The notes under the pieces: model-generated
What the model was told of the DNA's origin: nothing
Database searches by the model: none
Seen by the model: the letters and a program-made list of their open reading frames with translations, nothing else
Shown: positions 4,854 to 37,799 of the stretch, piece by piece
How the letters are laid out: every line of letters starts with the position of its first letter
How positions within the stretch are numbered: the stretch's first letter is position 1
Program-made: the position numbers and the translations under genes
Source: Microbotryum violaceum
Taxonomy: Eukaryota
NCBI GenBank assembly: GCA_001244265.2
Contig: CDLV01000007.1
Span: forward strand, 2,356,001-2,420,000
Direction of reading: 5' to 3'
Length of the DNA stretch: 64,000 nucleotides

Positions 4854-5067
4854 TCGTGTCTGCTGGTGTATGTAATCAGTGGTTCGTCGTACCTCTTTGT
4901 GGTGATGAGTACACCTGGGATTGGCAATTTAATTGCTGGGCAACTGTCTGTACGATCAAGCCTGCGGCATGCAGTGTCACTCTGTGTCACTTGGTTTGTA
5001 CTACCCACTGCAGCACGGTGCAGTGTAGCTCTGCGCTGCTCCCCCACCTACAGTGCGCGTACCCACA

Positions 5068-7115: not shown

Positions 7116-7445
7116 GAGATGTCATAGTATGTGCATAGCCACCATCGCCGGGCGGCTCCCGGCCTTTAGTTGCAATCACGAAGTCCATGCGCTCGTTCAC
7201 CGTTCTTCGGCTGCCTGCGAGAAACGGTCGCGGTCATTGGCGATTGACTAGTGTGGCCCCTAGGCCGCCAATTTAAGGTGCTTCAAGTAGCTTTTGGGAC
7301 AGCCGCTCACCATCTTGGTGAGATTCATTATGGAATCGTACGCCGTACAGACTGACCACTTTTTCAAGGACTCCGTTCCCCATCCAAAAACCTTTCTCTC
7401 CCTCCGGCACCTTACTGGGTCGCTGCATTCACGCTCCTCGCCATA

Positions 7446-8595
7446 ATGCTCTTTAGGACCCTTCTTCTCGCCTTTGTTGCACCCATTTCTACATCCGTCT
7501 CTGCTGCTCCTAGCTTGCCCCCATGCGGCATGGATTGCGCGAGGCGCGTCGCGCCCAACACGTCGGTCAGTCCGAGCGGTCGTCGTTCGCGCCACACGCC
7601 TAGCGGCGTCCGTTTCGCATCACTGACCCTCCCGACTGAGCACCGCTTGATATTGAATTAAGTGTAAGGAGTTCACGAATGTGAAATGTCGTTGTCAAGA
7701 TCGGGAATATGGCAAACTCTATCGACAATGTGTCAGGGAGAGTGGGTCGAACGAAGGGGCTCCGAACCCCTATCTTTCTCAAGCTAGTCTTGTAACTGAC
7801 TCGATTTGTGGGTCATAGGATGTACGGTCCAGCAACTCCCGTTTGTGAATGAGGTGGAGAACACGACGTGTGCGAGCTACAAGTTGTCGGAAACGAAGAA
7901 GGGGGGCATTGGAGGTACATTCAAGTTTGGGGTGCTTCACTGGGTCGGGCCCACGGGCAGGAAGCTGACTTCTAAACGCCACCATTCTCTCCGCAGTTCA
8001 TCTCACACACCCCAACGCAACAGCAGCGGATGAGGGTAATAGTGAACCGAAGGACCAGCGCTCCTCCCCTTCGAAGAAAAAGTCAACCCAGTCCACATCC
8101 GAGTCCCCAACGTCGACACGGACCAAAGCCCTCCTCAATGCGACCCACGACATACCCTCATCAGCGACCGCGGTCTCCCCTTCCAACGTGGACATCGTCT
8201 ACGCCAACTTGACGAAAGAAGTTGCTGAAGGAACGGGTATTGCGCTCCCCAACACGACCTACACCACCCCCGACACCACTTCTCCCAGTTCGAGCGAAAT
8301 GACGAACGCCACTTCGACGACCGCGCCCACCACCGATCCCACTTTTACGAACGCCACTTCGACGACTGGGCCCACCACCGATCCCACCTCTACGAATACC
8401 ACTTCTACCACTCCTTTATCCTCCTCCTCCTCTGAACAGTCGACCAACGCTTCTCTGGCCGAAGGGAATTCACTGGCGGGTACTGCCATTGGTAGGTTCA
8501 GCAAGAGTGCAGGTGCGAGGTGCCTGTCGACGCCGACATTAGAAGGCTCGTTGGCTTTCGCCTTGGTTGCTATGACGGTCTATTTTCAGATGTGA
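7446..8595 (+). CDS. Secreted CFEM-domain protein with Ser/Thr-rich stalk and probable GPI signal
   Basis: Signal peptide MLFRTLLLAFVAPISTSVSA. Spliced 8-Cys domain PPCGMDCARRVAPNTSCKEFTNVKCRCQDREYGKLYRQCVRERCTVQQLPFVNEVENTTC. Thr/Ser-rich stalk and hydrophobic C-terminus (SLAFALVAMTVYFQM). Confidence 0.8.
8302..8410 (+). repeat. 45-bp coding tandem repeat (~2.4 copies) in the CFEM stalk
   Basis: TNATSTTAPTTDPTF / TNATSTTGPTTDPTS / TNTTST; each unit carries an N-x-T sequon. Confidence 0.9.
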
Positions 8596-8861
8596 CCGCT
8601 CTCCTAATCTATAATCTCCTTGATTCGCTTTATTCTCATGTATCTTCGACTACTATATATATGACGCTTTCGGTGTACAATGTAATGAGTTGGTTCTCCC
8701 CATGCGTTCGTTCGATCAACTGCGGCAACTGGCAGCGTGATTCTCTCCGTGAAGGCAAATGGATATGCGTATTAGCACAGGCCAAAAATACAGTACTAAG
8801 GTGATGCAAGAAAATAAAAAGATAAAGAAGGAAAGAAAAGAGCCGCATCAAGACCACCACC

Positions 8862-10789
8862 TCAACGCCTACCTTTCTCCGCTGGCGCACTGCCCCCCTC
8901 GTCACGTTCCTCATCAACCTCTTCCACCACCCCGATCGATTCGACGACATTCGCTCGACTCGACTCTCTCAATGCCCTCGGATGATCTTTGGTACTCCTC
9001 GAAGGTCTTCGATAGCCTTTGACGACGGCGACATTCTCATCGTCCTCGGTGGCAGGGATTGATAAAGAAGGATGAGGAGGCGGGAGGTCCAACGGTCCCA
9101 AAGCTGAAGCGATGGAGTTTTCGAACGAATCGACGAACCCCGATGCAGCTTTCTGCGAGGACCGAATCGTATCGCCGATGTTGACCGTTGAGAGCCGCTT
9201 GGACATGTTACCCCATCCGGAGGAAAGGACATCAAGTGTTGTTCGAGGTCGGCCTTTCGAAGCTGAAGTGGGGACATCGCCTTGCTCCACTGGAGTCGGG
9301 ATCGAAGTTGAGGCGGTGGAAGAGCGTTGAAGTTCCTCAATGACGAGTTCCTTTGTCGAAGTCGACATGATCGTCGACGCCAACGAATCGTCCTCATCTT
9401 CCTCTTTCAAAACCCTGAGTCCACCCGATTCAGAACTCGTCGAGGCCATACTCGAGATCGACGAAGAAGGTGGATGAGCTCCGACGACGTTCAGGAGCGT
9501 TTCGTCGACGGTGTTCATCACGCGACCAAAGACGCCGCCGACCCAGGCTTTGGCCGCTTGGACGCTCTCCCCTACGTCTGGCGACGAGATTGAAGACAAG
9601 TTCGCCGATTGGACCGAGCTTTGTGCCTCGTCCCCCGTCGGATCGAAGGTCGAGGCGAGGAGATGGATGTCAAAGGAGTGCGAAGAGCCTCGTGGCATAC
9701 CTGGATCGGCAAGGTTCGGGGAACGGGAAGGGAAGGTTGAAGTGGGTGAGGCCGTCGGAGAATGCAGCGATTTCGCGACGATGGATTCCCATTTAGACTT
9801 GAGCGATTTGAGTTCGGCTTCGTGGCGTTTGAGCTCTGTGCCAGAGAATGGATCGAATGGATTTTAGTCTTGGCAAATTGTGGTTAAGGAAAGCAAGAGC
9901 ATTCACGAGACTGACCTTCTCGCAAGTCAAGACATTTGCGCTCCTTTTTGGCGATGAAGCTCAGCAGATCGGCATTCTGCTCCGTCAAGGTCGGCCGTGA
10001 CGAGCCCGTCATCCCACTGGCTGATCTCGTCGGAGACAAGAATGAAACACTCGTTGACAAGCTGCTGTTCCTCCTCGATTGCCGGGGCGAGGTCCAGCCC
10101 GAGGATGTCGCGTCCGACCCATCATCGTTCTCGGCCACGCCAATTGTCCCCGAACCCAACTCGAGTCCCAACCCAAGCCCCAAATTGTCCTTGGAAGCCC
10201 CTACGGCCTGAGTCAAACTCGCCCCGTTGAATAGTTGAGGGTCGAGCGAGAGAAGAGACGAACTGGAACTATAGGAGATGCTGCTTCCCCTTCGTGAGCG
10301 CGGACCCGGTCGATGATGAGCGGCCGACCCGCCCATGGTAGTGACCCGTGGCGCATGAGCGCTCGAAGGGGCCGAGGTCGACGAGGCAGGAATCGGGGAA
10401 GGAAAGTTCCATGCTGGTTTTGATGAGGAGTCGGACGCGGTCGAGACTGAGGCCAACGCTGTCGAGTCGCGATCCTCTTCGAAGTCTTCGTCAGACTCAC
10501 TCGGGTGCGAAGAAAGTGATGAGCGAGTCGGACCGCTTGCGTGCTGAGTCGAGCGATGAAGGGTGTGAGGTGAATGCGACGTGTAGGCTCGAGAGCTGTT
10601 GCTAGTCCGAGCCAGTGTAGGCGAGTCCAACGGGGTCTGGGAGGACACGGACGAGGTCGAGGTGCTGAGGGAGAGTCTCTTGAGGTGGCGAGAGGCGGAT
10701 GGGGGCGTGCACGCGCTGGGCGGATTCGAGCCGGCTGACGACGATGAGCCTACGATCGCGGAGGTTCGGCGAGGGAGTGGTGACTCCAT
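8862..10789 (-). CDS. Ser-rich coiled-coil protein, TDA11/DUF4048-like
   Basis: Two exons splice in frame to LLSFIAKKERKCLDLREELKRHEAELKSLKSKWESIV, a coiled-coil resembling fungal Tda11/DUF4048 proteins; the rest is low complexity. Confidence 0.6.
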
Positions 10790-12199
10790 TGTGAGGACGA
10801 GCTATTGGCGCGACTGTGAGACCGTTGGAATGGATCCTAGATGGCGACTTGGGAAGCAGGAGCTCCTTTAACCGAGCGGGTGGGGGTGCGTAGACGGGCG
10901 ATACGTTGACGACCGACGCGTGGAGAGCGGTGCAATCCAAATCCACAGGATACCTCTGGGGCGGGAAAGGAGCTTCACGATCAGTTAAGAAACGGTGGAC
11001 TGATCCCCCTGACTAGGAACATACAGGGGCCCAGAGTCGAACGGAAGCGGGTTACCGGCAATCACGCGTGGAGAAGCTGTCCAACCGAGCGCGTGCGACG
11101 TGACAAAACCACGACCGACACACGACGCGACGCGTTCACTTGAAGTCGGCTAGCGAAACTGGTCACTAGTCACCGCTGCTCAGTTGACGGTCGATGTACC
11201 ACGTATGTCACTTGGTGAGGGTGGGGATAGATACAAGATCAACGGCAGCAGTGAATGTAGGCACGGCGGGCGGAGACGTAGGCATAGACTCGAGAGTCGG
11301 GACGCAGGAAAACATGGACGACAATGCGGAGGCGGCCGCGAGCGAGCGAGCGAGCGGCTGCGTGATCCATGCCTAAATTGACCACCTCGATCAATTTAAT
11401 TTACTGTACTACACCGAACAGACATCGCCAGAGCAAGCTATTTGGTATTGATGATCGACGCTTCAGCAAAAGATATCCGTGCGACTCGTGGCACACTCGC
11501 GCCTGAAGTAATAGGGGCCACTGATCGAGACTGGGACCGCGCCCGCCGCACGCGGCAGTCGTGGCACTCTGGGCAGTGTGCTGTCGGGGGTCGCACTACC
11601 GCTCGGTTTGTCTCACGGGCCTTGTCGAGTTTTCATTTTCTTCGGTGTCGAGGTCATGAGGTCCGCGCGATAACGTCCCACACTTTTGGGGCATTCAGCC
11701 GAGGTCGCCCGGGGATCACTCGATCACTACCCGCCAAAAACACGGTGAACTCAACGAGCCTGGCAGATTACCGTTCAGCTCGACCCTTGCGACATTCTAC
11801 TACACCCCGACTCTTACCCCTACCAGTCCTCGTAATAGATCGATCGGCTGGTTCAGCGACGAGCAGCGCTTGAAAGCGTCCCTTTCTCCTCTTGTGTCCC
11901 TTTTCAGTTTGGGCAAAGGTAACGCAGCACATTGGACCCTTAAAGCGGTAAGTCTGGCCGTTTGCAGGCGGTGACGGGCTGCAAGCCTAATCTACCGCCG
12001 TGTGAGCCGCGCGCCTAAGTTAAAAGTCGGGCGAGGCAAGCTCAGCATGCCGTCAGCAGCCGGCCCTTGCGAGTCGTCGCGAGTCAGAGCAGGTAGACAG
12101 TGTGAGAAGAGCACTACTGACTGACGCCCAACTGACGCCGGCCCCCCGCGGCGCGCGCCCGACCTTTCTCTTTTCGCTTTCAAGCGCCGCGAACGAACG

Positions 12200-15100
12200 A
12201 TGAGCTCTACACCGACCTGGGCCCAACGAGCTCAATCGCTGTCCTCGTCTGATCCGACCTCATCGTCCTCGTCTGCGACGAACGGTTCCTCGATGGACCA
12301 CCCTGCCTCTTCGTCGTCCGCTGCTGGTGGAGCTGCTGCATCAGCTGCTATGGCGCCCTCGTCGGGATCGCTACTGCCATTGCACGTCGCACCGATGGCC
12401 TCGTCGTCGAAAGCGTCAACGTCCGACAACTGGCGGGCAGACTCGTCTCTGCACAACACCCACCACGATACTTTACACTCCAAGGACTCGACAGCCGACC
12501 CGGACTCGAGCGCACACAACGATGACGGCTGGGTCACGCTCGAGAAAAAGGATCGTAGCTCTCGCAAGGCGACTCACACCCCTGCGATGAGCTCGACCTC
12601 GTTCTCGAGCAAAGGCGGCGCCTATTCGAAGCCGAGAACGTCGACCAAGCCTTTGAACAACTCTGCATTTTCTGCGTCGTCCATCTCGGGTCGAACCGCG
12701 AACGGGGTTGGGTCGCACGGGCGGTCTTCGTTGTCTGGCCCGCTCGCGCCCTCGCTCGCGGTCGCAGAGGCCACCAGCGCCGGTCCATCGTCGTCGCTCG
12801 CTGTCGCACCCGCCGGGTCGTCGATGGCCGCCTCCGATCCGAGCCACTCCCGGCCAGCGTCCCTGACCGTACCCACACCAGCTCTACCCGCTTCTCGACC
12901 CGTTCTGGATTGGGCCGACGACACGGACGACTCGTTACCACCACTCCCTTCGCCCACGTTCCCAACCACCGCGCTGCCTCCGACCACGACAGCTCCGTCG
13001 ACCCAAGCCTCCACCCCGGCCCTGTCCGACAGCCCTGATACCCCAGAGAATGCATCGACGGTAGCGAGCACACCCATAGATGAGCATACCATCACTTCTT
13101 CCAAAACTTTGCAGCCGCAGTCGGCGGGATTGGCATCGGAATCGGCATCGGCGCCGAGCCCGGCTCCCTTCGTACCCACGCCAGTCGTAAGGCAGCCGGC
13201 TCCCGTTCCGACCGTGAACGTCTGGGCCGTTAGGAAGGACCAACTCGCCGCCGCGGCCGCCGCTGCCAAAGCCGCTCAGCCCGTCGCACCGAATTCCGCT
13301 TCTGCACCAACAGCATCATCTTCATCCGCAGCAACAACAACTGTATCAGGTTCTGCTCAAAATCCGACCGGCACAAGTCCGGCGCCTGCATCCAAGAAAT
13401 CAGCCGCCAAGCTCGCGAAAAAGGAGGCCGCTGCGAAGGCCGCCGCCGCCGCCGCCGTTAAATCGGGCCCACGCGCACCGACATCGTCTCTGACCCCGCC
13501 GCCGCCACCTTCCGCCACCTTGAACTCCAGTCCCACTCCCGCTCCCACGGCGGCTCAGAATTCGACGTCGACCCCAATCATCAAGCGCAGCACCGAAGGA
13601 TGGAACGGAGTGCCATCCGCGCCGCTACCCGTGCCCGTCGGAGACGTCGAGTCATGGCCCTCGCCAAATACCGAAGCCGCCAAGCCCGCCGGGCCCGTGA
13701 AGAAGTATGGATCCGCAGCGAATGCATCCAACGAAGCTGAGATCGAAGAGGCGCAGAACAAGAAGAAGGGTACGTTTTCTCTGTTCTTCGCGAGCCTTTC
13801 GCAGGCGCGTCTGCCGAGGTCACGCGACGTGGCACATTCGTCAACTCCCATCAATCATGACTTTTGCTGACCCCATAGCCTTCTCCCACCTACAGCTGAA
13901 AAGACAAAGTGGATCCCCATCAAGGCCGACATCACGGTCAACCCGACATCGTCGAGTCGATTGTTCGGTGCTTCGGGCGAGAAGCGGGTACCCAAGTCGG
14001 GAACGAGCTCGAGAAGGGAATTCGGTGGAGCCGACAAGGGTGCTGAGGAGAACGGTGTCGGTGGAGCAAGTAAGCGAGCTGCTGGTGAAAAGAAGCCTAA
14101 GTCTGCACAAGCTTCTGTGGCAGCCGCTGCGGCGTCTACGCCCGCTCACGCTGGCTCGGCCAAGAATGCAAACGCGGCTTCCACATCTTCATCCAACCCC
14201 GCTTCCACCCGACCGACCGACCACCCCCTGCCTTCCAAGCCTAACTCTTCCCCATCTTCACACCTGCCCGCGCAACAGGCCGCCCCCTCCACTTCTTCTC
14301 CTTCGGCCCAACCTGCTACTTCCGCTTTCGCCACGTTGACGGTTGCTGCTGCGTCCAAGAGTGCGCCGGCTTTGAAGAACGGCGCTCAGGCTGCTACTGA
14401 AGGCGACTCTGCCTCTTCCGCGCCAAAGTCGGCACCGAATGCGACGGTTTCACCTACTTCGGCAACGGCGCCCTCGGCCAACAAGGCTTCTGCTTCTCAG
14501 TCTTCGAGCTCTGTATCGGTGGCTGTTCCTAATGCTCCCACGTCGCAAGCATCCAAGGGCCAACCCACGCCCAACGGCAACGCCCAAGCACCCTTCCAAA
14601 ACGGCACTTCGACCCACGGTCGTCACCTGGGATCGGGAACCACCGTTCGAGGTGGTCTTCATGCTTCTCGAGGAGGCCCTACCGCCCGCGGTGGTCGTAG
14701 TGGATCCATGTCGAGTCGAGGTGGTTATCAGGGATCCAACCCTCGAGGACCCGCGTCGTCGTCGTCGTTGCACCAGGCGCAACAAGCCCAGGCTGCGGCA
14801 CAGCAACCCCATGGTGCGGGCTACCTTGACCCCACTACAGCGTATTGGCACGCTCAGGCCGCCTACGGAACCGTCGCTCTCCCCGACGCTGTTGCACCCT
14901 GGGCCTACGAGCAGGCTCAGCCATACGTTGACCCGAGGGTGCTCGACCCGACACGATACTGGCTTCTGGGCCAGCTCGAGTGGTACTTTTCGGTCGACAA
15001 TCTGTGTCGCGACATGTACTTGAGATCCAAGGTGAGTTAATTTTGAGGATGATGGTATCGAATTCCGGAGCCCTGGCTGATTTTTCGTTCTGTTGCCCTC

Positions 15101-18481: not shown

Positions 18482-19487
18482 CTAATTCGACCAGTTCCTC
18501 CACACTCCAAAGTTGTTCTGTATCCCTCCAGCATGCCCAACCTGGATATCTGTCTTGATCAAGGGACCCAAGGGTGCCTCGGTATAGATCTGATCGAACA
18601 GGTGCTCCACTGATGTGGACGTCAAGAGAAGAAGTTTGCTATCGGGTTTCAAGATCTGCTTGAGAGTTTTGGCCAGCTTTCGATTTGTTACCTATGGGTT
18701 CGAATTCGTTGAGAAATGAGGATGAGCTCGGAAAATCTAGGGGTTTTCATCGAAACTGAGAAAGACCGCGGGACCGACCTCGTTCAAGAATGGTGGATCA
18801 CAAATGGCGATATCGACCGTGCCTTTGATACCTTCCGGGACATATTCTGGCTCATCGATATCGTAATGCACGAATTGGTCCGCGTCGAGCAGCTCGAAGC
18901 GCTTGTCGTATTCGAGCAGCAAGGTCCGAGAAAGAGGATTCGTGTGTTGAAAGCCGACGTATGCTGTCGGACAGCACAAGAAAGCGACGCGGGTTGATGT
19001 TGAAGGGCACAAGGACCGAATATACTGGGCCAGTGTGGTCGCAAACGCTTGGGAGTACCTACGATGCCCGACGGTGGGAAGGGCGAGTTTTCGCACAGTT
19101 CTGGATGTCAGATTTGAAGGCCCCGACGCGCTTCTTGGTGGCCAAGTTCGATACCAACCAGAACTGCGACAATTGCCAATCTTCACCAAACAGTCTCCGG
19201 AACTCGTCCACAGTCATCATTAGTGCCTTGTCGGGTTCGTCCCCGCGGTCCGCACTCTCAGGCCCATACGCGTCCTCGCCGTCCTCACCGGCAGCTTGGG
19301 CGGCTTTCTTGCGCTTGTCTACGCGCTCGGACAACTCTTGAAACTGGCGATCTGCCTCGTCCTTTTCGTGAAGGAATCCAGCGAGGATGGCTAATGTGGC
19401 CGGGTCGAGTTGAGGTGGTGGTGAAGCTGAAGTGGAGCGGGACCGGGTCGACCCTTCAGCGACGTCGGCCGGGGCAGCGATGGACAT
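18482..19487 (-). CDS. EFM5: EF1A lysine methyltransferase EFM5/N6AMT2 (EEF1AKMT1) family
   Basis: EDWQLSQFW|YS, VAFLCCPTAY, LLEYDKRF, CDPPFL; three exons. Confidence 0.9.
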
Positions 19488-20299
19488 GGTGTTGTTCTTG
19501 GCGCAGAATGGCGAGTACGGTCCAAATCTAGAGCCAGAGAGCTGTCTTGAGGAAGTGGAGCAGAGCGAAGACTGTGACTGGGGAACGACTCCGAGTGCCC
19601 GGATGACGGCGGAAAAAGAGGTCCGAGCGGCTCAAGGCCTGCGAAGTAGAGCGAAGTAGATCCGCTGTCAGCCTGTGCCAGTCTGTGCCAGCCTGTGCCA
19701 TCGCGAATGTATCCCTTCCTCTGCCTGCCCACGCCTCAAACCCATCTCCGCCAACGACCGGCGCCGCTTCCCCACCTCGAACGGATCACCACAAGTTTTT
19801 GATCAGGCCTAACTGATCCGGTGATGGGCGTGCTCCGGTTCGAGCTGTGCGCCACAGCCTACAGGCGACAACTCGGCGGCCGAATCAGGCACGCGCGTTC
19901 TACGAAGTGCTCATCGTTCCGACCTTGAAGCTTGAAGTACCTTATCCTCAGCAAGGACGAAGGAAGACCCTGGCTCAACCTCCGGACTGTGGACGGCTTG
20001 CTCCGATACGGGCAAGACGATGGCACGCCTTACTTCTGCTAGAGAATGGACATTTTATCGATAACATCCCGACTTTCGTGAAGTGGGATCAAGGTGGACG
20101 GGAGGACCTTGTCCTGACCGCCGATCTCGTGTTCGAGTAGTCTGGGAAGACGTGAGCCGCTTCTCTGGACATCAACCCCCGTAATATTCTGCCTAATTCC
20201 GCTACACCTGGTAGTACCATAATTGTCTCTAGCAATGCAACCTATCCTTATTCAATCGTGCGGGTCGCCTTCGTCTTCTAGTATAGCCAAAGCGCTTCC

Positions 20300-23200
20300 T
20301 CAGGCCCTCTTCTTGATCATCTCCACCGCTCTCAACGCCTTGCTTCGACTCGATCGAGTCTGAGAATCAAAGTCACGGAATCTGTGTGCGCTTCCCCTGG
20401 ACAGCTGATGGGCTGCACTCGCAATCGACACTCTGCGGGCCCGCAAAATGTCAATCTTTTTGCTTCCCATGCTGAGATAATGACGTCTAGCATCGACACT
20501 TACGTCATCTCTTGCATCTCGCCTGCTGCATGGCGCGCAGCAGCTGTGATAGCGGGCCGGCTTCTCGAGAGAGAGGAAGTTTGCTCGTTCGTGCGGAGTT
20601 GATGCTTCCGCAGCACAATCTGTGCAGTAACGATTTGTTTGACTCAACTCAGCTCCTGACTGGGTTTGGAGTACCGTTTCAGCGTGCGGTAATTACCCTG
20701 GCAAGGTCGACCAAAACGTCTTCGCTTTGTTGTTCATCCCGCTGCATGGCTTCGGGATGTTCCCTTGGCGCTGACGCTGTTTCCACGCGAACTCGTTTGG
20801 CTGGAGGAGTCTGTCCGAATCCCGCCGGGGTACGACCTCGTGTTTGGATTCTTGAGTGTTCCCTGATCCCAGAAGTTACCCTGGCCGCATTATGGTGTCT
20901 AAAAACGAAAGCAAGCGGGGCCAATGGCGAACGACTAGCGCGGCCGTCGAGTTGGCTCGCTGCGATTGGGTCCGGTCTTGGAATTATTGTGGGAGAAGAT
21001 GCCTTTGAGCTTGTCAATAGCGAAGGGGGCGTCCGTAGATTCTTCTTGAACGGCTAGAAAGGGATCGAGATCAGTGTTCACTTTACCTTCCTTAATTCAG
21101 ATCAGATCAGTATGGAACCTACAATATTGTGGACAGGCTCCTTGACACTGGGAGACTGCCAGTGTGCGTCCCTGATGAGCTCCTTCTCTTCGAGTGGTGG
21201 AGCCTCTTCCCTGCTTTGAGCGGTCCACCTTGGTGCGGGCTGGTCCACCTTCAACGCGCCGTGAGATGTAACCTCCTGGAATAACTCTCGATCATCTTCC
21301 ATTTCCGTTCCTTGACGTTCCAGGCGAGGACCAGTATCAAAATTGGGCTCAATCCCACCAATATCCCAGTCTTCGTGTGCGGAAACTTGAAGGACGGACT
21401 CGCTCCTGTTCCTGTACTCTGGTGGAGCATTTCGCGTCCTCTCCCCGGGGGTGTCATCATCCCACGGCCTCTTCTGACGAGACGATGATTTGCGTTTAGG
21501 AGCAGGCTGTGGTGGCTTCGAATGGCGAGTCTGTTTGGGCGGTGCGACGTCTCGACGAGTTGAGGGTGTCTTTGGCCGCACCACCCTGGGTAGATCCGAA
21601 GAAGTGTCCGAATCTGCCGCTTCACCGAGTGTTTGACCATTCGCTTTCATACCTGCTCCCATCTCACGTGCCTTGCGTGGCACACGCTTCGACCCCGCCC
21701 TGTTCCCTTGTGGAGTGTACCGATCAGGCGAGGAAGTGGGGATACCGGACTTTCCACGCAGGGATGAAGCACTGTATTTGATGGGATGGAGCGACGGTTC
21801 TTCCGTACGAGGTGGTTCCTCCGCCGCTTTTCGGCGTTCTGCATTCGCCATATCTCGCCCCATGACGTCGGCCTGCTCAGCGGCTCGAGTGGTATACCGC
21901 TTGTGAGAAGGATCAGGTGAAACTCTCAGTTCAAGATAAAGATCACACATGGAAGATGATTGTCTAAACTCACTATCTTTCTCATCATCAAAACTTGCTG
22001 CAGGCGCTGTGCATCCGAAAGGTGAATGCACAGCACAAGACTTGGGCCAGCCTCATTGTGGGGGAGCTCGAGTGGCGTTGACTCCAACGTCGGCGAGTGA
22101 GACAGTATGATCCTGCAAGTCATGTGTTCTGTCCAAAGATTGCTAGGCGCCCCGTCAGCTTCTGCTCGATATCTGTGCAAAAAACTTAGCTTACCTTCTG
22201 AAAAGTCAAACAGCTCGACACTCTTGATGCCAGACAGAGGTGCTTCGATAGTTCGTTGTGCCCCGTCGTCGTCTGCAAGGTAGCTCAACACATTGGCGCT
22301 GATAGATCTTCGATTGAAAGACACGTAGTCTTGATAGTCTTCGGTGGGCTTCTCCACGTCGGTGCAGAGGAACGCGCGACCGTTGGCGTGAAATGTGACT
22401 GCAAAGATGAGTTTGAAGCTGTGAAACAGGATGGGGTGCTATAGGCATACAGTGAGTATATCACATCACAAAAATTTGATGAACTCACTTGGTGGCAGCA
22501 AATGTGCTCAGTTCCTGCAGCAAGCTCAGAGACCCCTATTCGGGCGGCGATTTGTCAGTCAAGTCAACAAGCCCAACACGCCTTAACGAGGGGGACTTTC
22601 GTACTCACCTCATCCCATTCCCTCGCTTTTATTCTATGAAACATCCCGCGCAGCTTTTGCGACTCCTCTGGTCCCCACACGTCGGAGGGGAAGAGCGCCG
22701 CTTCCCAACTCGAGACGGAGACCCCAGCCGAGGAGGGCGCTCGGGCGAGATGACTGCGCAGCCGAAAGGCCAATTCTAGGGCTCTTGAAGTTACTCCATG
22801 ATCTGAATACGACCCAATGAGTCTCAGATTGACGGGGTCGGAAACCTGAAGAGAAAAGACTTACCCTCGGCGACACTGAATAAGCCCGCTAGACGCTTCG
22901 GTCCTAGGGCCTCCGGTCGAATGAGGCGATTTTTGTTCTCCACGCAAAGGTGGGTCGAGTCTTCAAAGATGTCCAGGATAAGTCTTTGAACAGCTGAAAT
23001 CACGTGGTCTGTAGTGAGAAGTCGTGCCAGGGACGGGTAACAGAGCTTGCCGAGCAGGTCTTCGTCTAGTAAGAAACACAGATATGTGTCGGCTATCAGT
23101 CGACATCATGATTAACAGACGGCGTCAGTTTTGACTGAAACTGTCAAACGCACCAAGTGCCGTGAGAGGTTTTGCCCTTGCCTCGGTCGGATCCAGAAAG

Positions 23201-23663
23201 GCTTTTAGGCTCAGTAGAATCGACTCCATCACCAGATCCCAAGCCTGACCTAGTGCCACCTTGTCTTCCACGAATCGACGACCGGGTTCTTGATTGGAAT
23301 CTAGAAATTTCCTGATCTGGGTATTGGTATGATCGAGCAGAGCGGCGAAGAATCGGAGAGTGGAAGCGGGTCGTGCGACGAGGAGCACAATCGCACCTTC
23401 GGACGAGGGGAAGAAGGCTGCTGCCTGGGGCAGGTAGGACGCGTTATGGCGCTGTGGTGATACATGTTCGAGTCCAAAGATTATGAATGAGTCGGTGCAC
23501 TTTAGATATGATACAAGGACGAAGTGGTAAAACTGATGCTTACAAGCAAGTCACGAACCGCGCTGCGGAGTGCGGCCGTGACTCCTTTCAAGTCATCCGC
23601 ATCACCAACGTCATCCACGATCGCCTGGAGCAACTCGGTTGCAGACCCCTTTGAACGTGACAT
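20300..23663 (-). CDS. Multi-exon protein, candidate meiotic chromosome-axis core protein (Red1/Rec10/SYCP2-like)
   Basis: Exons join in frame from ATG 23663 (MSRSKGSATELLQAIVDD) to TGA 20300. Helical N-terminus, then a beta-rich segment ending in a helix, a long disordered basic/Ser-Pro region and a C-terminal helical segment. The gene model is fairly firm; the family call is an inference (see findings). Confidence 0.6.
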
Positions 23664-23969
23664 GACTGGGGGTGCGACTGTGCTCTGCGAGGCACTGAGA
23701 CGTATCCCTTGTCCGAAGAGATCGGATGGGAAGGCGGGCAAGGCGTAGGAGATATGCGACCCGGCCGCGGGCGTTCCGGGCGGCGGCACGCGCCGAAAGG
23801 AGCTGCATGATCGTGATCAAATCGGGCTCGGGTTCGATCACCGTCGAAAGCAAGATCGGGATTCTCGCGCGTTGATAGATAAACCTATATAACTCGTATA
23901 AAATGGTACTGATGAGGCTCATATCCCCCCTGTACAACATACTACCTAGCAATCCTGCTCTCGGCGAAG

Positions 23970-24797
23970 CTAGAGCTTGGACTCGGGTTTGGGGACCGAT
24001 ATCAGGCTCGGCATGAAGCGACCGTTGAAGCTCCTCAACTTCGATCCAAGCCATCCACTCTTCATCTCCTTGCCATTCCATCGGTCTTCAAACCGGGTGA
24101 TCTTGTTGTCGGTCGGGTCCAGCTCGATGTGAACGAGCGATTTCATCTCCTTGACAGTGTGGATACCCGCGACGGTATATTTCTGCACTTGTTCGTACTC
24201 AATTAGGCCCTAGAGAGTCCAAGAAAAGATGAGCGATCCGTTCAACTCTTCTGAACAATGATAAACCACTCACAGGCTCGTTCTTGAGAACTTTCCAAGA
24301 CAAAGTCTCCGACTGAGGAAACGCTTTGGGCATGCCGTACCTGTTCATCATAGCAGTCACAGCTGTCTCAGCGTGTGCTCATGGCAGTGTGGCATATTTT
24401 CGGACTGGCTCGCTATCACCATTGTGCCATGTATTCCTTGTCCCCCTTGGCGATGCAGATCGGATCCTCAAAGACGGCATCTGTCAAGAGGCGTCGGGCT
24501 TGTGGGCTCAGCGCGCCAGTCTGCGACGATTATCAATAGACTGGTGGAAAGTTGCTTACCCTTCTTCCAGTCCTGTTCAAAGATCTCGAGCCTCGGCTTA
24601 GAGCTGAAGAGGTCCTGCACGTTCTTGACCAGCTGCGCTCGGCGTTCATCCAGCACGAGACCGTGTTCTCCTGCTGCTGGGGCCGTCGTGGGGGCAGTGC
24701 TCACAGTTGCGTTTGAGGTCATCGTGCGGTAGAGAAGAGGTGTTGTGCGGTGATAAGCAGCGAGTCTTCGGGCGACGAGTGGGCTTATCGCAGGCAT
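23970..24797 (-). CDS. NTF2/SnoaL-like protein, copy A, ending in PTS1 (-SKL)
   Basis: Four exons: ...VKNVQDLFSSKPRLEIFEQDWKK|DAVFEDPICIAKGDKEYMAQW|YGMPKAFPQSETLSWKVLKNEP|GLIEYEQVQKY...KITRFEDRWNG...PESKL*. The DAxFxDP and KIxxxEDRW motifs fit the SnoaL/NTF2 fold. Confidence 0.75.
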
Positions 24798-31032: not shown

Positions 31033-34000
31033 CTAATATGCGCCCCCGTAGCCAATCATCGGCATGCCCTGGCCGAGTAAGATCGGTGCGGACGACTCGA
31101 GTTCCTCCTTCTTGGCCTCCTTCGTCGACATATCCTTGACTTGCTTTGCGAGCGAAGTCAACATCTCGTGCCGATGTCGTTCTTGGCTCAATAGATAGGG
31201 CACTGCAAAAAGGTTGAGACCGAAGTCAGCTCGCTGCAGCTTATGGTGTGCAGGTGGACTGTTACTCACTTGTAAAGTCATTCAAGCCTGCCTTCCAGGA
31301 CAGATATTGTGCAGTATCAAGTCGAATCAGGTCGTAGCAGACGTACAGCGTCGCGGTGTAGCACTCCTTGGAGCCAATGTCGACAAAGTAGGTCAAGAGC
31401 TCCTCGGCAACCTCTGTCGAGTTCGACGTCGCGGCGGTCTCGATCGCATCCTTGAACAGCTTGTCCTGCTTGGACAACGAGATCGACTGCTCCCACTTGC
31501 CGTTCTTCTTGTACAAGTGAGCGGCGAGTCGTCGGAACTCGAGCAGGTCGTGTTTCTCCAACCGAGTTGCCAGAGCAAGAGCGTCGAATGCATCGTTCGA
31601 GTCGGTCGAATCCCGCAGCGTTTTGTAGTCCTCGTCCTCGATCAAAAGATCGTTGTAGGCTTCGTTGACAGCGGGGATGTTGTTCTTTTGAACGGCGATG
31701 AGGTAAGACTTGATCATGGGGAGTTCGTCCGCCTTGAGGAACATCTTGACTACTCGGGTGTGGTCGATACGAGGCGCGAGCACCGACAGCAAGTCGTTCA
31801 ACAGCATCGGTTGCTCTTGCAAGTAATGTGTCAAGGCCTACGGGTAAGATTGCAGAGCTCCGCTTAGTGTTTGCCATAACAGACGTTCTCTTCACCAGCA
31901 CAGCAGAAGGGACAAGACGCACCTTGTAATAGATCTCGATGTTGGCAACTTTCACTACGACCTCCTTGAACTGGTTGTGGTCCCAGGCATCGGCCGACCG
32001 TTCCATCATCGCCAGGGCCGCGTTGTCGAATTCGTCGTACTTGACGTACAGGAAGACGAGCTCGGACCAGAGATGGGCCTGCTCGGCGGCGCGGATGACC
32101 TTGGGGATGTTGATTCGGGACCAAAACAGCTTGAGGTGCTCCATCAACCTCTCGGGCGCGTATTTTGCGTAAAGGACCGACAACTCGGTGAACATGCCCA
32201 TGTGCGCTCGCTCGAGACCAAGACCGGCCTCGAGGAGAGCCATCAACTCGTCGACGTGACCTCGGTGTTCGTACAGGCGCACGAGTGCCTGCAACTCCTC
32301 GGCATGAACGATCAAGTTGAGACCGCAGATCTGAGCAAGTCGGAACTCCTTCTTGTCGATGCACGCGGCGTTGACCTGTCGCCACACCTGTGTATTGCCT
32401 GCCTTGCGAGCGGCATCGACGGCAGCCTGGTTTTCGCCGAGGTAGATTAAGGTCGTCGCGAGGCGAGCCCAGTTCGAGATGCTGGTGAAGAGCAGACGAG
32501 CAGCTTCGTACATGCCAGCTTCAAACGCCTTCTCACCAGCCGAGAGCTGATCGGCAACGTTGGTCATGGCAAGGAACTCCTCCATGTCATGCAAGCGGTC
32601 CGTTCGTGCATACGCGAAGGCGAGCTGAGTGTCGATGGCGGGCTCACGCAATGTCTTGCGAGCCATCTGCAAGTATCGAACGAGATCGTCGTACTTGGCT
32701 GCTCGATCCGCGGTTTCGATGACCTCGGCGTAGTTGCTCGGATCCTCGGCCTTGACGTACGAGTCGATCGCGTCCTTGATGCGCAGACCGTCCAATTGAG
32801 CTTTTCCGAGTCGGGACCACACAGCGGGCTGGTCAATCTTGGCGGCGTACTGCGATGCGCGGTCGATCGAGACGATATACTCGACGAGCACATTCATCGC
32901 GTCGAGGTGTCGGTCATTCTTCTTGAACAAGGTGAATGCTTCCTCGTAGAGGCCGTGCTCAGTAGCGATCGCAGCAATCTCTTCGACGTTAAAGCCCTCG
33001 ACGCGTTCGATATAGCCCATCACTCGGCCCTTGTCGGCTCGGATCGCGGTCAGCATCAAGAGCTTCTTTAAGTTGCTGTTGTCGCTGAACGCCGAAGGTT
33101 CAAGGATAATCTTCTCGAGCAGCTCAATGAGTTCGGAGGGGAGGTCGGCGGACAGGAAGGCCTTGACGGTCACCGAGACGTCCTCAGGATCGGTCGACTC
33201 GGGCACGGCGGTGGCCACGACCTGGTCGACGAGCTGTCGCTTGTGGTCGTTGTCATCCGAGAGGACTTGCTGCCACAGTTCTAGTCGTCGCCTCTTGACG
33301 AGGTATCGCGCCTGGTGCTTGAACATGGAGTTGTCGTTCGTGATCGAGATGAGCTCGTCGTCGCAGAAGCCCTTGGCGTATGCGATGTAGGCGAGGTAAG
33401 GATCGCGTTGCTCGCAGTATTTACCGACAATCAAAGGGTCGTACGCGTTATTCTCCTTGAGGAACTGCTCGGGGTTGTTGTTGCTGTCGATCGCGATCTT
33501 GGCCAGAGCGTTGTAGATGCCGGCTTCCTGTTGACCTGAAGCGACCTTGGCCTCGAGCCAGGGCAAGATGAGCTTGAGTCGGTTGCGCTTCTCGACCTCG
33601 TCGACGAGCTCATCAACGGGGATCGGACCGGTGACCGAGGCGAGCAGAGCCTTAATCGTCGTCTCGTCGCAGTCGACGTCCAACAGGCCACCAATGACCT
33701 GAGGGGTGCGAGCCGAGTTGACGCGTTGCACGTAGACCTCGATGAAATTCGTGAGACCGTTTTGGTAGAGGTACAGGACGAGATCGTGAACAAAGTCGAA
33801 TCGATCGCATACGATGATCAAAGGCAGTTGGTCGGCCAGCTTTGCCTCCTTGAGGAAGTTCTTGACCTTCTCGGGGTTGTAAAAATTTGACTCGCGAACG
33901 ATGCGTTCGACCTCGCGAATTTGGCCGGTGCGGGTCGCGGCCTGGATATACTTGAAGTGCACCTCCGAATCCTCACTGAGGTTGACGACAGAGCCGAGGT

Positions 34001-36919
34001 AGTAGTACAGGCCCTCGGACGTCTTGAATGACTCGAACATCTCAATCAAGCGAACGGGGCCGATCAGATCCGAAAACTTGGTTGCGGCCTGAACCACGAC
34101 CTGCAAGTTCTGGCGAATGTTGACCTTGAGCATCTCGTTGAAGCACTCGAGCGTTTGCTCGACTGTGAGCTTGCCAAAGTAATTGACGAGCCACTGGAGG
34201 TCAAGATGAGGGAATATCGACCATCAGCGACGTTGCAAAGAATAAAGTAGATACCGGCAGCAAAGGACGTACGTCGGCCTGCAGTAAGTTGGTGTGGACG
34301 ACCACGCGCTTAATATCGCTGATGTCCTCGTAGTGCTCCAGAGCCTGTCTCATTTGGCAAAGTCAGCGTTCTGCCTCACATCTCAAAAAAAAGGCAGCTT
34401 GCTCTTACCCTCTGCAACAGGCCAGCTTTCTCGCACAAGTTGGCGATACGGGGCCGGTCGTAGTGGGTGAACATCTCATTGCCGAGGATGGCGTCGGCGA
34501 CTTGGGGCGCGTTCACGAGGTTCATCTCGAGCAATCGCGTCTGCATGTGCGCCTGCTCGGGCTTGTTGTCCTTGAGCGCGTCGAGCAGGAACGACGTCGC
34601 TTGTTGTATCATGTTCTGGCTCATGAAGATGTCGACGACTCGCTCAACATCGACAAGCGGGCCCGATTCATCATTCACGAGCTGGCCGGCGAATTCGGCA
34701 CCTTGGTCCGGGTTCAGTCGAGTGATGTGCTGGAGCAGCGAGGCGTAGTCGGGCGAGTAATTGACGCGCTTCGAGTAGACGACAATTTTGGCGAATTGGC
34801 CAGTTTCGGCGAAGCAAGCGACGACCTTGTTGGGCACATTGGCGCGCAGGTAGACGGAAAGCGCCAAGGTCATGTCGTGCGCACGAACAATGTCACCCAA
34901 CTCTTCGCTGCACTCGATCTTGTCCTCCTTGAGCCATTTCTCCAGCAGCTGCTTACGGCCTTGCACGATCACAGGACGTGCAAGCTCGAGTGACTCGTGC
35001 TTGTTCAGCTTGCCACGTTCGAGCAGAATACCAAAGTAATGCAGGATCGGCGACATCTGGCCCGCGGGAACGGGAACACCCTTGAACTGCTCGATCGTTT
35101 GGCTCGTTCGCAAAATGCCTCGGGGCGAGTTGGCAGCGACCTTAGCGGCTTCAGCGTAGTTGCCCGACTGGAACAACTGCGCGAACTGGCGCGTGTACAA
35201 ATCGTCGGCGCCAGGGAGGTTGGCGCGAGACGCGAGGCGGATAGCCAGCTCGGTGTTGTTGAGCGTTTGCAGGATGTACGGGATGATGGTGTCGTCGTCG
35301 ACCGTGACGGACAGGACCTGGCCCTTGCGGTTGACACCGACGATGCCCGAGGTCGAGGTGTGCTCGCAGGTGACGAACATCGTCTCGCCCGAGATTCGGT
35401 TCATGTAGATGCAGGCGCCCGACTCGAGGTCGTAGAGGTGGATAAAGCCGTACTTGGTCACGAGGTAGGCGATGCCGTAACGTTTTGAAACTTGCATCGC
35501 GACGGGGAAGTCGTTTGTCGCTTCCGGAGGAAAGAAGACGTCGACGGCCTTCTTGGCATACACGGGCAAGTGGGCTTGGTGATCGATCTCGACTACATGG
35601 AGCTGCAGCAAGGAGAGGGGCAGATCGGGGTCAGTCTTGTCGAACCGCAATCGTAGGAATGTGATGTCGCACACGCACCTTGGCGCCTGTCCCGGTCCTG
35701 ACCGCAAAAGCAAAGAGCTTGGTGTCGTCGCTCGCACCATCCATCCTCAACTCTGCGAAACTAGCGGCATGACCTTCGATCGGTTGACTGACGCCGCGCT
35801 CGCGCGAGTAGAGCTGCATCGCTCCCTTGACCTTGAACCCGGCAGGGTTGGTCGTGTTGGATGAGATACCGACGAGCACGAGCCACTTTTCATCGGGCGT
35901 GACGCGATAGTTGATAATCTGATTGCCCTGGAGTGAGGCGTGTCGATCAAAAACCTTGACCGGTGCCGGGGCTGTCTGTGTGCCGGGAGCAGAAGCGGGG
36001 GCGTACGCAACCCAGCTGAAGCAGTAAAAGGCATGCAGCCATGTGTCAGGTTGGATTATGTAATAACAACAAGGAGAATGCACGTGCGACGCACTGGTAG
36101 ACGGCGGTCTCTGTGACGATACCCAAAGTGGTGTTGGAGATCCACTTCCAGAAGACAACGTCCTCGTGAATAGCATACGACGTTACTTTTTGCTTGAGGT
36201 CAATGTTGAAGATTTGCAGCTGTCGTTGGGCTGTAGACCCATTCGCAAACATAGACTCGGGTCAGCTGCAGAATCCGGTCCGAAGGATTGGGTTAGAGCG
36301 GGGACGCGTCCCGCTCCTGGCTGGGGGACGGTGGGGGGAGGGCTCGGTCGACACCACGGGCACCACGGGGACACGATCTCGCGACGACTGACCTCTGAGC
36401 GCGATGACCTTCTCCTCGGGGTGCATGATGGCACTCTCGGCCGAGATCGGTCTCCGGATCACATTTCCCGGGTCGTTGAGATCGATGATGACGACCTGCT
36501 TGGTGCCGTTGACCTCCTCGCGGACGCAGATGAAGCGGTCCGACTCCAACGTCAAAGTCGCGAACCCGATTGAGCCCGGTTGGATGCCCAACGCGGTGAG
36601 CTGTAGGTAAAGATACGTTTGATCTTAGTGTGTCAACATGCTTGTGCGCGTGGGGGGTGCAGTGTGCAGTGTGCAGTGTGGGGTTGCGCGGGTGTGTCGG
36701 GATGCGACGTTGTTGGCAGGTGTGACGTGGTGCCAGAGAGCGCGGATGCGTCAACGCGGGCGCGACTGACACACGGCTGCGTCGGGCAGCGATTGCGCAC
36801 AGATGGACATGGAGGACATAGAGCCCATGGTAGAGTGATGCAGCGCGCGAACAAGCACCCAGCAGACGGTGACTGACCTGTTGGAGTTCGGAGAAGCTGA
36901 TGGGGCGGTCGACGGCCAT
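31033..36919 (-). CDS. CHC1: Clathrin heavy chain
   Basis: [121 protein letters not shown]; multi-exon. Confidence 0.98.
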
Positions 36920-37799
36920 CGTGTAGGATGCCTTGGGTCAAGCCAAGCCAAACGGGAGGGACGGCGGCGGTGCGACGTAACACCAACGAGAGGGCGGTGG
37001 CAGTGGTACAATCGGACTCTACTCGAGTGAGGAGAGATGCGATCGGTCACGAAGAAAGAGAGAGCAGAAGTGACCAAATCAATCACGATGGGCGTGTACA
37101 GTGTCAGAGGGCGAGGCGAGGTGGTCGAAGCGGACCTTTAGCCCTACGCGCTCTTTGGGCACTCATAGCAGCGCATGCCTCCTTTAGCTGGCTTATGTCG
37201 GCGGGCTAAAGTCGAGCGTTTTGGATCTTGGATATGTAGCTACCTCTACACGGAAGTTCATCGCACTGCTGAGCTTCTCATATGAGTAAAACAACGTGGA
37301 ATATTTTTCAACATTTTCGCAAATTCGGAAAGTAATGTAGTAATTCATGTCCAAAGTTGAGGGCAAAACCTTCATTTGCAATTTGCATTTGGTGACCTAT
37401 AGTCTTTTCGGCTTTTGCTGCAAGAGTTTGACGCCGAGGACTCTCCGCCGCCTGTTTCCGCCTGTCCTCTAACCCCAATCTACTCGTAAACGAGCTCGAC
37501 CCCGATCAGGATCGGCGACTCAACCTGGTGTCCCCTTCGCCAATATGATGTACAAGCACTCTGCTATGCCATTTGGCTGCATCGCCACTGTTACGATCCT
37601 CCTGCGGCGGAGTGGCACCCCGTGTCTCGAAGCAGGCAAAACGACGTATCCCAGTGTATGACCTGTGTGGGACACCCAGGACGAGTCCTGCAGCGAGGAT
37701 CCGGGAGTGGAGCAATGTCAAACGCTCGGGGCCCAGCTTGATCGTCTTGGGTCCTCAGCCCAAGAGGGAGAAGAAAGGTTTGCCGACTCGTTCATCTCA

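What the first reader, a model, noticed from the sequence alone, without database searches (positions are those of the whole stretch)
20300..23663. Hidden multi-exon gene with the architecture of a Red1/Rec10/SYCP2 meiotic axis core protein
Seen: the ORF track shows only fragments here, but manual splicing gives one protein. It has a helical N-terminal region ending ...LGPKRLAGLFSVAEDHGVTSRALELAFRL...LRGMFHRIKAREWDEGSLSLLQELST. A beta-rich block follows: NFKLIFAVTFHANGRAFLCTDVEKPTEDYQDYVSFNRRSISANVLSY...TIEAPLSGIKSVEL...LVLCIHLSDAQRLQQVLMMRK (strands then a terminal helix, PH-like). Then come several hundred disordered basic residues with many S/T-P sites and a C-terminal helical segment (EDVLVDLARIVLRKHQLRTNEQ...VEMIKKRA). 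Known: budding-yeast Red1, S. pombe Rec10 and mammalian SYCP2 share an ARM-like + PH N-terminus, a HORMAD closure motif and a C-terminal coiled coil. Inference: from memory, the D-x6-LE-xx-RL / F-xx-IK-xx-E / V-x-FN-xx-S spacing matches the SYCP2 ARM-PH junction. These proteins diverge fast and are poorly recognised in basidiomycetes, so this may be an unannotated axis component.
Basis: partly seen in the sequence, partly recalled or inferred. Interest (0 to 1): 0.75.

Follow-up and report, generated by a model that had tools for sequence, protein, structure and literature searches.

The report
Divergent meiotic axis-core (SYCP2/Red1-type) gene
This is a real 11-exon gene of the anther-smut fungus Microbotryum, listed in databases only as a hypothetical protein, whose N-terminal fold and overall layout match the SYCP2/Red1/Rec10 proteins that form the core of meiotic chromosome axes.

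Summary
Window 20300-23663 (minus strand) carries one gene of 11 exons and 10 GT-AG introns (62-92 nt), encoding 873 aa.

The window is Microbotryum lychnidis-dioicae. The gene is already annotated as hypothetical protein MVLG_01642 (691 aa). That model skips two exons and most of a third, and these are conserved in M. saponariae and M. intermedium.

Sequence methods do not place the protein in a family. Pfam and PDB profile searches gave no relevant hit. Homologues were found only in Microbotryum and Leucosporidium.

Structure supports the interpretation:
- The Atlas model of the Leucosporidium homologue (BLASTP E 2e-33 to the window protein) matches an SYCP2 ARLD+SLD cluster at TM 0.69 over 352 residues; the next row is 0.35.
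- Two low-confidence AlphaFold models both rank PDB 5iwz (named there only 'Synaptonemal complex protein'; its identity as mouse SYCP2 is recalled) first of 350,542 chains (E 9e-3 and 6.3e-5).

Not shown: the HORMAD closure motif, a true C-terminal coiled coil, and meiotic expression.

Verdict: a new, divergent member of a known family; moderate interest.

The parts
20300..23663 (-). Whole coding region, ATG 23663 to TGA 20302-20300: 11 exons, 873 aa
   Evidence: Exon joins worked out and checked: 2622 nt, one terminal stop, 10 GT-AG introns of 62-92 nt. Identical to P0001 (MVLG_01642) for aa 1-672, and 768 of 873 residues identical to P0002.
23544..23663 (-). Exon 1 (aa 1-40)
   Evidence: Donor GTAAGC at 23543.
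23154..23451 (-). Exon 2 (aa 41-140)
   Evidence: Its 99-aa translation finds P0001 at 100% identity.
22865..23065 (-). Exon 3 (aa 140-207)
22609..22802 (-). Exon 4 (aa 207-271). It carries the ED-x-G-x-T-x-RALEL-xx-RLR block, conserved between Microbotryum and Leucosporidium
22489..22535 (-). Exon 5 (47 nt, aa 272-287)
22195..22418 (-). Exon 6 (aa 287-362), first part of the PH-like beta block
21974..22128 (-). Exon 7 (aa 362-413), second part of the PH-like block and its closing helix. It is separated from exon 6 by a 66-nt intron that stays in frame
   Evidence: The E|E junction is seen in P0001-P0003. Intron 22194-22129.
21123..21899 (-). Exon 8 (aa 414-672), basic and Pro/Ser-rich, predicted disordered
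20697..21053 (-). Exon 9 (aa 673-791): end of the disordered region and start of the C-terminal helices. Absent from the MVLG_01642 model
   Evidence: 101 of 119 residues identical to P0002, 53 of 119 to P0003.
20504..20619 (-). Exon 10 (aa 792-830). Absent from the MVLG_01642 model, and among the best-conserved exons within Microbotryum
   Evidence: 38 of 39 residues identical to P0002, 33 of 39 to P0003.
20300..20432 (-). Exon 11 (aa 830-873 plus stop). MVLG_01642 keeps only its last 19 codons
22419..23663 (-). Genomic span of the ARM-like helical domain (aa 1-287, introns included)
   Evidence: 13-14 helices in DSSP of both models. Structural match to SYCP2 ARLD+SLD through P0007 and to 5iwz.
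21888..22418 (-). Genomic span of the PH/Spt16M-like domain (aa about 288-417)
   Evidence: Strands followed by a helix at 398-410. Spt16 and Pob3 middle domains are among the PDB hits. P0005 and P0007 align here.
20303..20753 (-). Genomic span of the C-terminal helical region (aa about 773-873), the candidate oligomerisation segment
   Evidence: Two long helices, 767-798 and 806-866, in the P0002 model, at pLDDT of only about 40. The heptad test is ambiguous.

Best explanation
The gene encodes the Microbotryum representative of the SYCP2/Red1/Rec10 'axis core' family of meiotic chromosome proteins.

Shown here:
- A folded N-terminal module of about 417 aa, made of an armadillo-like helical solenoid packed against a PH/Spt16M-like beta domain. 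Its closest structural match is SYCP2.
- A basic, proline- and serine-rich region of about 350 aa, predicted disordered.
- A C-terminal segment of about 100 aa predicted as two long helices. It is strongly conserved within Microbotryum.

Inferred from the family, using the architecture described in the introduction of Mendez Diaz et al. 2026 (bioRxiv 10.64898/2026.01.19.700424):
- In meiotic prophase the C-terminal helices would oligomerise into the axis filament, alone or with an SYCP3/Rec27-like partner.
- Short motifs in the disordered region would recruit the HORMA protein Hop1 (closure motif) and Rec8 cohesin (cohesin-interacting motif).
- The N-terminal ARM-PH module would serve as a docking platform.

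The public model MVLG_01642 (691 aa) most likely mis-splices the 3' end and so loses the oligomerisation segment.
For: Gene reality:
- The 11-exon model has canonical introns.
- Collinear orthologues of 867 and 888 aa exist in two other Microbotryum species, and a 983-aa homologue in Leucosporidium creatinivorum.

Fold:
- Atlas structure search with P0007 aa 1-420: row 1 is an SYCP2-like cluster (PF18584 in 100% of members, PF18581 in 97%). TM by query is 0.69, TM by row 0.47, with 352 residues aligned over 1-407. Row 2 is POB3 at 0.35.
- Foldseek against 350,542 PDB chains puts 5iwz 'Synaptonemal complex protein' first for both models: E 9e-3 and E 6.3e-5.
- In one search, FACT Spt16 and Pob3 middle domains follow from rank 6. 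This fits a Spt16M-like PH domain.

Language-model neighbours (leads only):
- Rec10/Red1 cluster 0.85, with 171-172 shared features; SYCP2 clusters 0.83-0.86.

Architecture:
- The disordered basic middle region is described.
- C-terminal helices are at 767-798 and 806-866.
- Exon 10 is identical to M. intermedium at 33 of 39 residues, against 519 of 873 overall.

This is the combination that Tromer et al. 2021 (PMC8131943, passages read) name as the best criterion for SYCP2-type proteins: the ARM-end plus PH region, together with a C-terminal coiled coil.
Against: No sequence-level link to the family:
- Pfam found no Red1, SYCP2_ARLD or SYCP2_SLD match at E <= 10, either for 8 exon translations or for 5 whole proteins.
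- PDB profile searches with A1 and A3 found nothing relevant.

Weak models:
- My own models have mean pLDDT 41.6 and 43.3.
- TM to 5iwz is 0.15-0.27 and rmsd about 17 A, so those matches rest on local 3Di similarity.
- The TM 0.69 result is for a homologue only 28% identical, and both sides of that comparison are predicted models.

The coiled coil is not established:
- The heptad pattern beats shuffles only if Ala counts as a core residue (4 of 500 shuffles reach it). Without Ala, 236 of 500 reach it.
- The Microbotryum and Leucosporidium C-termini share no BLAST similarity.

Still open:
- No closure motif or cohesin-interacting motif was identified.
- No expression data were available.
- Whether Microbotryum has Hop1 was not checked.
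Confidence: 0.72

Rival explanations
1. A non-meiotic scaffold or signalling protein that merely shares the generic 'helical repeat plus PH' arrangement. Examples are the ASK1 central regulatory region and DH-PH exchange factors.
For: Foldseek ranks 2-5 and 8-11 are the ASK1 central regulatory region, ECT2 and Ephexin4 (E 1.2e-3 to 9e-3). Ranks 3-11 are mostly generic armadillo or TOG repeats. No sequence family was assigned.
Against: These hits have E-values about 20 to 150 times weaker than 5iwz. No kinase or DH domain is present. The Atlas structure search separates SYCP2 (TM 0.69) clearly from everything else (0.35 or less). The long disordered linker and terminal helices fit the axis-core layout.
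Confidence: 0.12
2. A histone-chaperone-like protein related to FACT (Spt16, Pob3) or Rtt106 through its PH-like domain, acting on chromatin outside meiosis.
For: Spt16 and Pob3 middle domains score probability 0.97-1.00 (ranks 6, 7, 10, 14, 17 and others). POB3 is row 2 in the Atlas structure search (TM 0.35).
Against: These matches cover only about 180-250 columns, which is the PH part. The SYCP2 domain is itself named 'Spt16M-like' (Pfam SYCP2_SLD), so such hits are expected for an SYCP2-type protein. The N-terminal solenoid and the overall architecture are not those of FACT.
Confidence: 0.06
3. The locus really produces the shorter 691-aa product annotated as MVLG_01642, as the sole or an alternative isoform. 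That product lacks the C-terminal helices and so could not form axis filaments.
For: The public annotation of this very genome joins exon 8 directly to the last 19 codons. That join is in frame and uses a CAG acceptor (sequence).
Against: It needs an intron of about 760 nt, where the other 10 introns are 62-92 nt. The skipped exons are open and flanked by canonical splice sites. They are conserved: 101/119, 38/39 and 43/44 residues identical to M. saponariae, and 53/119, 33/39 and 26/44 to M. intermedium. Both orthologue models include them.
Confidence: 0.1

Closest known systems
SYCP2 (vertebrate synaptonemal complex protein 2; N-terminal ARLD+SLD, PDB 5iwz, Pfam PF18581/PF18584)
   Same: The N-terminal armadillo-like plus Spt16M/PH-like module is the best structural match by two routes. 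The layout is also the same: a long disordered middle region and C-terminal helices. The architecture is as described in the introduction of bioRxiv 10.64898/2026.01.19.700424.
   Different: There is no detectable sequence similarity. The protein is about 870 aa, against 1500 aa for mouse SYCP2 (size from Table 2 of PMC4132317). SYCP2 works with SYCP3; no partner is known here.
Red1 (S. cerevisiae) and Rec10 (S. pombe), Pfam PF07964
   Same: They are fungal axis-core proteins of similar size (827 and 791 aa, Table 2 of PMC4132317). They share the order ARM-PH, closure motif, disordered region, C-terminal coiled coil. A Rec10/Red1 cluster is among the language-model neighbours, at 0.85.
   Different: PF07964 does not match. 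The Red1 'KIS' closure motif that directly follows the PH domain (PMC5758881) has no conserved counterpart in the five-sequence alignment. Homotetramer formation is not shown.
FACT Spt16/Pob3 middle domains
   Same: The PH-like beta domain resembles them (and row 2).
   Different: Only the PH part matches. They lack the N-terminal solenoid, the long basic linker and the terminal helices.

Membership tests
SYCP2-type axis core proteins (SYCP2/Red1/Rec10/ASY3) | N-terminal armadillo-like domain packed against a PH/Spt16M-like domain | tested here: met
   The homologue P0007 matches an SYCP2 ARLD+SLD cluster at TM 0.69 over 352 residues, and it is collinear with the window protein (E 2e-33). PDB 5iwz ranks first for both AlphaFold models, although those models are of low confidence.
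SYCP2-type axis core proteins (SYCP2/Red1/Rec10/ASY3) | Significant profile similarity (E < 1e-2) to the ARM-end plus PH region, the criterion of Tromer et al. 2021 (PMC8131943) | tested here: not met
   hmmscan against Pfam (PF07964, PF18581 and PF18584 included) found nothing at E <= 10 for exons or whole proteins. Profile searches of PDB sequences found nothing relevant. Profile-profile comparison (HHsearch), which is what that paper used, could not be run, because no family profiles were at hand.
SYCP2-type axis core proteins (SYCP2/Red1/Rec10/ASY3) | C-terminal coiled coil that oligomerises into tetramers and filaments | tested here: inconclusive
   Two long C-terminal helices are predicted at low confidence. 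The heptad periodicity is significant only if Ala is counted as a core residue: 4 of 500 shuffles reach it with Ala, 236 of 500 without. Oligomerisation is not shown.
SYCP2-type axis core proteins (SYCP2/Red1/Rec10/ASY3) | HORMAD (Hop1) closure motif after the PH domain | not testable with these tools
No motif after the PH domain is conserved in all five aligned sequences.
SYCP2-type axis core proteins (SYCP2/Red1/Rec10/ASY3) | Long disordered central region between the folded N-terminus and the C-terminal helices | tested here: met
   Residues 416-775 contain 17% bulky hydrophobic residues, 43 Pro and 61 K/R. Apart from one short helix (aa 425-440), both models leave this stretch as coil at pLDDT of about 30.
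SYCP2-type axis core proteins (SYCP2/Red1/Rec10/ASY3) | Meiosis-specific expression and axis localisation | not testable with these tools
   No transcript data were available. No paper in the library mentions MVLG_01642.
[quoted passage not shown] | Short amphipathic helix in the disordered region | not tested
   This feature is described in bioRxiv 10.64898/2026.01.19.700424. By eye, an acidic run followed by hydrophobic residues at about aa 610-625 is a candidate (alignment). No Rec8 sequence was at hand.

The most novel reading that the evidence does not exclude
This is the first recognisable axis-core protein of the Microbotryomycetes (Pucciniomycotina). BLAST-based meiotic 'toolkits' of other basidiomycetes list RED1 as absent or not detected (tables read).

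Its N-terminal domain is structurally nearer to animal SYCP2 than its sequence is to any fungal Red1/Rec10 model. This suggests that basidiomycetes kept an ancestral SYCP2-like axis core which has diverged beyond sequence detection.

If so, it would give a direct molecular handle on the chromosome axis in Microbotryum. From recalled knowledge, that genus is a model for recombination suppression on mating-type chromosomes.
Probability: 0.6. Interest if true: 0.5.

Novelty: new member of a known kind. Interest (0 to 1): 0.42.

Why it matters
Axis-core proteins evolve so fast that sequence searches miss them. RED1 is scored 'absent' or 'not detected' in several basidiomycete genome papers (PMC4500085 table; PMC3560662 text).

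Assigning MVLG_01642 and its orthologues to this family fills a gap in the meiotic gene set of Microbotryum. It also corrects a truncated public gene model.

It names a testable candidate for work on axis assembly and crossover control in a fungus studied for recombination suppression (that last point is recalled).

It does not reveal a new kind of system. Tromer et al. 2021 already showed that SYCP2-type proteins are spread across eukaryotes, fungi included (abstract and passages read).

Tried and rejected
**Searches that found nothing useful**
- Pfam on 8 exon translations gave one sub-threshold DUF3731 hit at E 0.023. Pfam on P0001-P0003, P0005 and P0007 gave one sub-threshold Mobilization_B hit at E 0.025. 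I dismissed both as noise.
- PDB sequence-profile searches with A1 and A3 returned only cyclic-nucleotide-gated channel chains at E 1.8, then nothing.
- The exhaustive HMMER search with exon 6-7 found 5 proteins. That query unknowingly included 22 residues translated from the in-frame intron. P0004 and P0006 are long repetitive proteins that matched over short stretches; on reading them I judged them unrelated and dropped them.
- The profile search with A1 recovered only the 3 Microbotryum proteins among 8000 scored candidates.

**Jobs without a usable answer**
- Complex prediction with four copies of P0002 aa 765-867 returned 'no answer' (score 0.00; the alignment was not used). It counts neither for nor against self-association.

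**Gene-model alternatives discarded**
- A 44-nt first intron.
- Read-through of the 66-nt intron in the PH block.
- A 32-nt last intron.

The orthologue protein models decided against each of these.

**Not searched**
- The genome-contig collection holds only bacteria and archaea, so I did not use it.

**Motif hunting by eye**
- I looked for a Red1-like 'KIS' closure motif after the PH domain. The candidates around aa 411-417 and 450-454 are not conserved in M. intermedium or Leucosporidium, so I make no claim.
Full report
**What is at the locus**

The stop-to-stop ORF list for 19500-24500 shows only fragments on the minus strand, the longest being 316 aa. I read the junctions on the minus strand and compared them with annotated orthologues. 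This gives one gene of 11 exons:
- exon 1: 23663-23544
- exon 2: 23451-23154
- exon 3: 23065-22865
- exon 4: 22802-22609
- exon 5: 22535-22489
- exon 6: 22418-22195
- exon 7: 22128-21974
- exon 8: 21899-21123
- exon 9: 21053-20697
- exon 10: 20619-20504
- exon 11: 20432-20300, stop included

The joined sequence is 2622 nt and encodes 873 aa with a single terminal stop. All 10 introns are GT-AG and 62-92 nt long. All quoted peptides are present.

**Organism and existing annotation**

Exon 2 finds, at 100% identity, 'hypothetical protein MVLG_01642 [Microbotryum lychnidis-dioicae p1A1 Lamole]' (P0001, 691 aa). It also finds orthologues in M. saponariae (P0002, 867 aa) and M. intermedium (P0003, 888 aa). 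So the locus is annotated, but without a function.

P0001 equals my model for aa 1-672 and then jumps to the last 19 aa. It therefore skips exons 9 and 10 and most of exon 11, through an implied intron of about 760 nt. The skipped exons are open, have canonical splice sites, and are present in both orthologue models. Their conservation is as follows:

| Exon | Identical to P0002 | Identical to P0003 |
|---|---|---|
| 9 | 101 of 119 | 53 of 119 |
| 10 | 38 of 39 | 33 of 39 |
| 11 | 43 of 44 | 26 of 44 |

Exon 10 is thus among the best-conserved exons of the protein. I read the 691-aa model as a 3' mis-annotation, but an alternative isoform cannot be excluded without transcripts.

**How far the family reaches by sequence**

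- The exhaustive HMMER search with the exon 6-7 stretch returned 5 proteins at E <= 1e-3: P0001, P0003, a 180-aa fragment (P0005, E 3e-6) and two long repetitive proteins. I judged the last two unrelated on reading them.
- A profile of the three Microbotryum proteins recovered only those three among 8000 scored candidates.
- P0005 led to P0007, a 983-aa hypothetical protein of Leucosporidium creatinivorum.
- P0007 aligns collinearly with the window protein over aa 81-417 (BLASTP E 2e-33, 28% identity). It has the same order of parts, but its C-terminus shows no BLAST similarity.

Pfam gave no Red1, SYCP2_ARLD or SYCP2_SLD hit at E <= 10 for exon translations or whole proteins. PDB profile searches gave nothing relevant.

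**Fold**

With only 4-5 sequences in the alignment, AlphaFold2 models are poor. Mean pLDDT is 41.6 for P0001 and 43.3 for P0002.
- 13-14 helices in aa 8-287
- a short helix at 425-440
- coil to about aa 766
- in P0002, two long helices at 767-798 and 806-866

Despite the low confidence, Foldseek against 350,542 PDB chains ranks 5iwz 'Synaptonemal complex protein' first for both models.
- For P0001, E is 9e-3 and probability 0.84.
- For P0002, E is 6.3e-5 and probability 1.00. This is the only hit at E <= 1e-3.

TM scores are low (0.15-0.27), so this is local 3Di agreement and not a good superposition. I recall, without a call, that 5iwz is the mouse SYCP2 N-terminal ARLD+SLD fragment.

The stronger evidence is independent of my models. 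The Atlas's own model of P0007 aa 1-420 matches a cluster named 'synaptonemal complex protein 2-like'. PF18584 is on 100% of its members and PF18581 on 97%. TM by query is 0.69 and TM by row 0.47, with 352 residues aligned across 1-407. The next row, POB3, has TM 0.35.

Language-model neighbours of P0001 (1-415) and P0007 (1-420) are the same list:
- an unnamed Basidiomycota cluster, 0.96
- an SYCP2_SLD-bearing cluster, 0.86
- a Rec10/Red1 cluster, 0.85, with 171-172 shared features
- an SYCP2 cluster, 0.83

The tool rates scores below 0.9 as leads only.

**Rest of the architecture**

Residues 416-775 contain 61 K/R against 47 D/E, 43 Pro and 17% bulky hydrophobic residues. They hold 10 of the protein's 12 S/T-P sites.

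The C-terminal 98 aa are predicted helical at low confidence. A crude heptad test is ambiguous. All 8 a/d positions in a 28-residue window are hydrophobic if Ala is counted, and only 4 of 500 shuffles reach that. Without Ala the count is 5 of 8, which 236 of 500 shuffles reach. 'Coiled coil' is therefore plausible but not shown.

**Comparison with the known family**

The introduction of Mendez Diaz et al. [quoted passage not shown] Their results add a Rec8-binding amphipathic motif.

Passages of Tromer et al. 2021 (PMC8131943) give the best criterion for SYCP2-type proteins. It is similarity over the end of the ARM repeats plus the PH domain, together with a C-terminal coiled coil. They also note that the Red1/Rec10 N-termini and the fungal coiled coils are extremely divergent.

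The protein here meets the fold and layout criteria. It fails the sequence-profile criterion with the tools I had. It leaves the closure motif, oligomerisation and meiotic expression open. The Red1 'KIS' closure motif (PMC5758881, passages) has no conserved counterpart in the alignment.

**Literature on novelty**

- No paper in the library holds 'MVLG_01642' or both 'Microbotryum' and 'Red1'.
- The 6 of 8 papers listed for 'Microbotryum' plus 'synaptonemal' do not, by title and abstract start, concern Microbotryum axis proteins.
- RED1 is listed as absent in Cryptococcus neoformans and not detected in Basidioascus (table in PMC4500085).
- RED1 is described as absent in Malassezia and Ustilago (text of PMC3560662).
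- The Basidiomycota row of Table 3 in PMC4132317 lists Hop1-like hits but no Red1-, Rec10- or SYCP2-like hits.

**Context**

The neighbouring genes are ordinary housekeeping genes: a La-domain protein, a JAB/MPN protein, a DEAD-box helicase, clathrin heavy chain, a subtilase, TFIIF-beta and HMG-CoA reductase. Nothing suggests a functional cluster.

**Verdict**

This is a divergent new member of the SYCP2/Red1/Rec10 axis-core family in Microbotryomycetes, with confidence about 0.7. The public gene model is probably truncated at the 3' end. Interest is moderate: it is useful for fungal meiosis and for annotating Microbotryum, but it is not a new kind of system.

Noticed in passing
window 20300-21122 (minus strand): The public model MVLG_01642 (691 aa) joins exon 8 directly to the last 19 codons. 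It thereby skips two conserved exons and most of a third, about 182 aa including the C-terminal helices. The orthologue models in M. saponariae and M. intermedium keep them.
   Followed up: yes
window 22129-22194 (minus strand): This 66-nt GT-AG intron is a multiple of three and has no stop codon. The PH-like block therefore reads as one open frame of 170 aa, and a read-through translation would insert 22 spurious residues.
   Followed up: yes
window 19059-19631 (minus strand): The neighbouring downstream ORF (190 aa stop-to-stop) has no Pfam hit at E <= 1e-5. From memory, its C-terminal part resembles the start of an EFM5/N6AMT2-type lysine methyltransferase. This was not checked.
   Followed up: no
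window 31317-35746 (minus strand): Clathrin heavy chain, split over at least two large ORFs (Clathrin repeats E 1.4e-164; propeller, linker and H-link domains). An ordinary housekeeping gene.
   Followed up: partly
window 54844-58077 (minus strand): HMG-CoA reductase with a sterol-sensing domain (E 8e-118). Ordinary.
   Followed up: partly
window 2073-15040 and 37742-49652: Eleven of the long ORFs (220-581 aa) in these spans have no Pfam match at E <= 1e-5. Examples are 12125-13870 (+), 48024-49652 (+) and 46043-47341 (-). They may be lineage-specific or disordered proteins, or antisense frames in GC-rich DNA.
   Followed up: no
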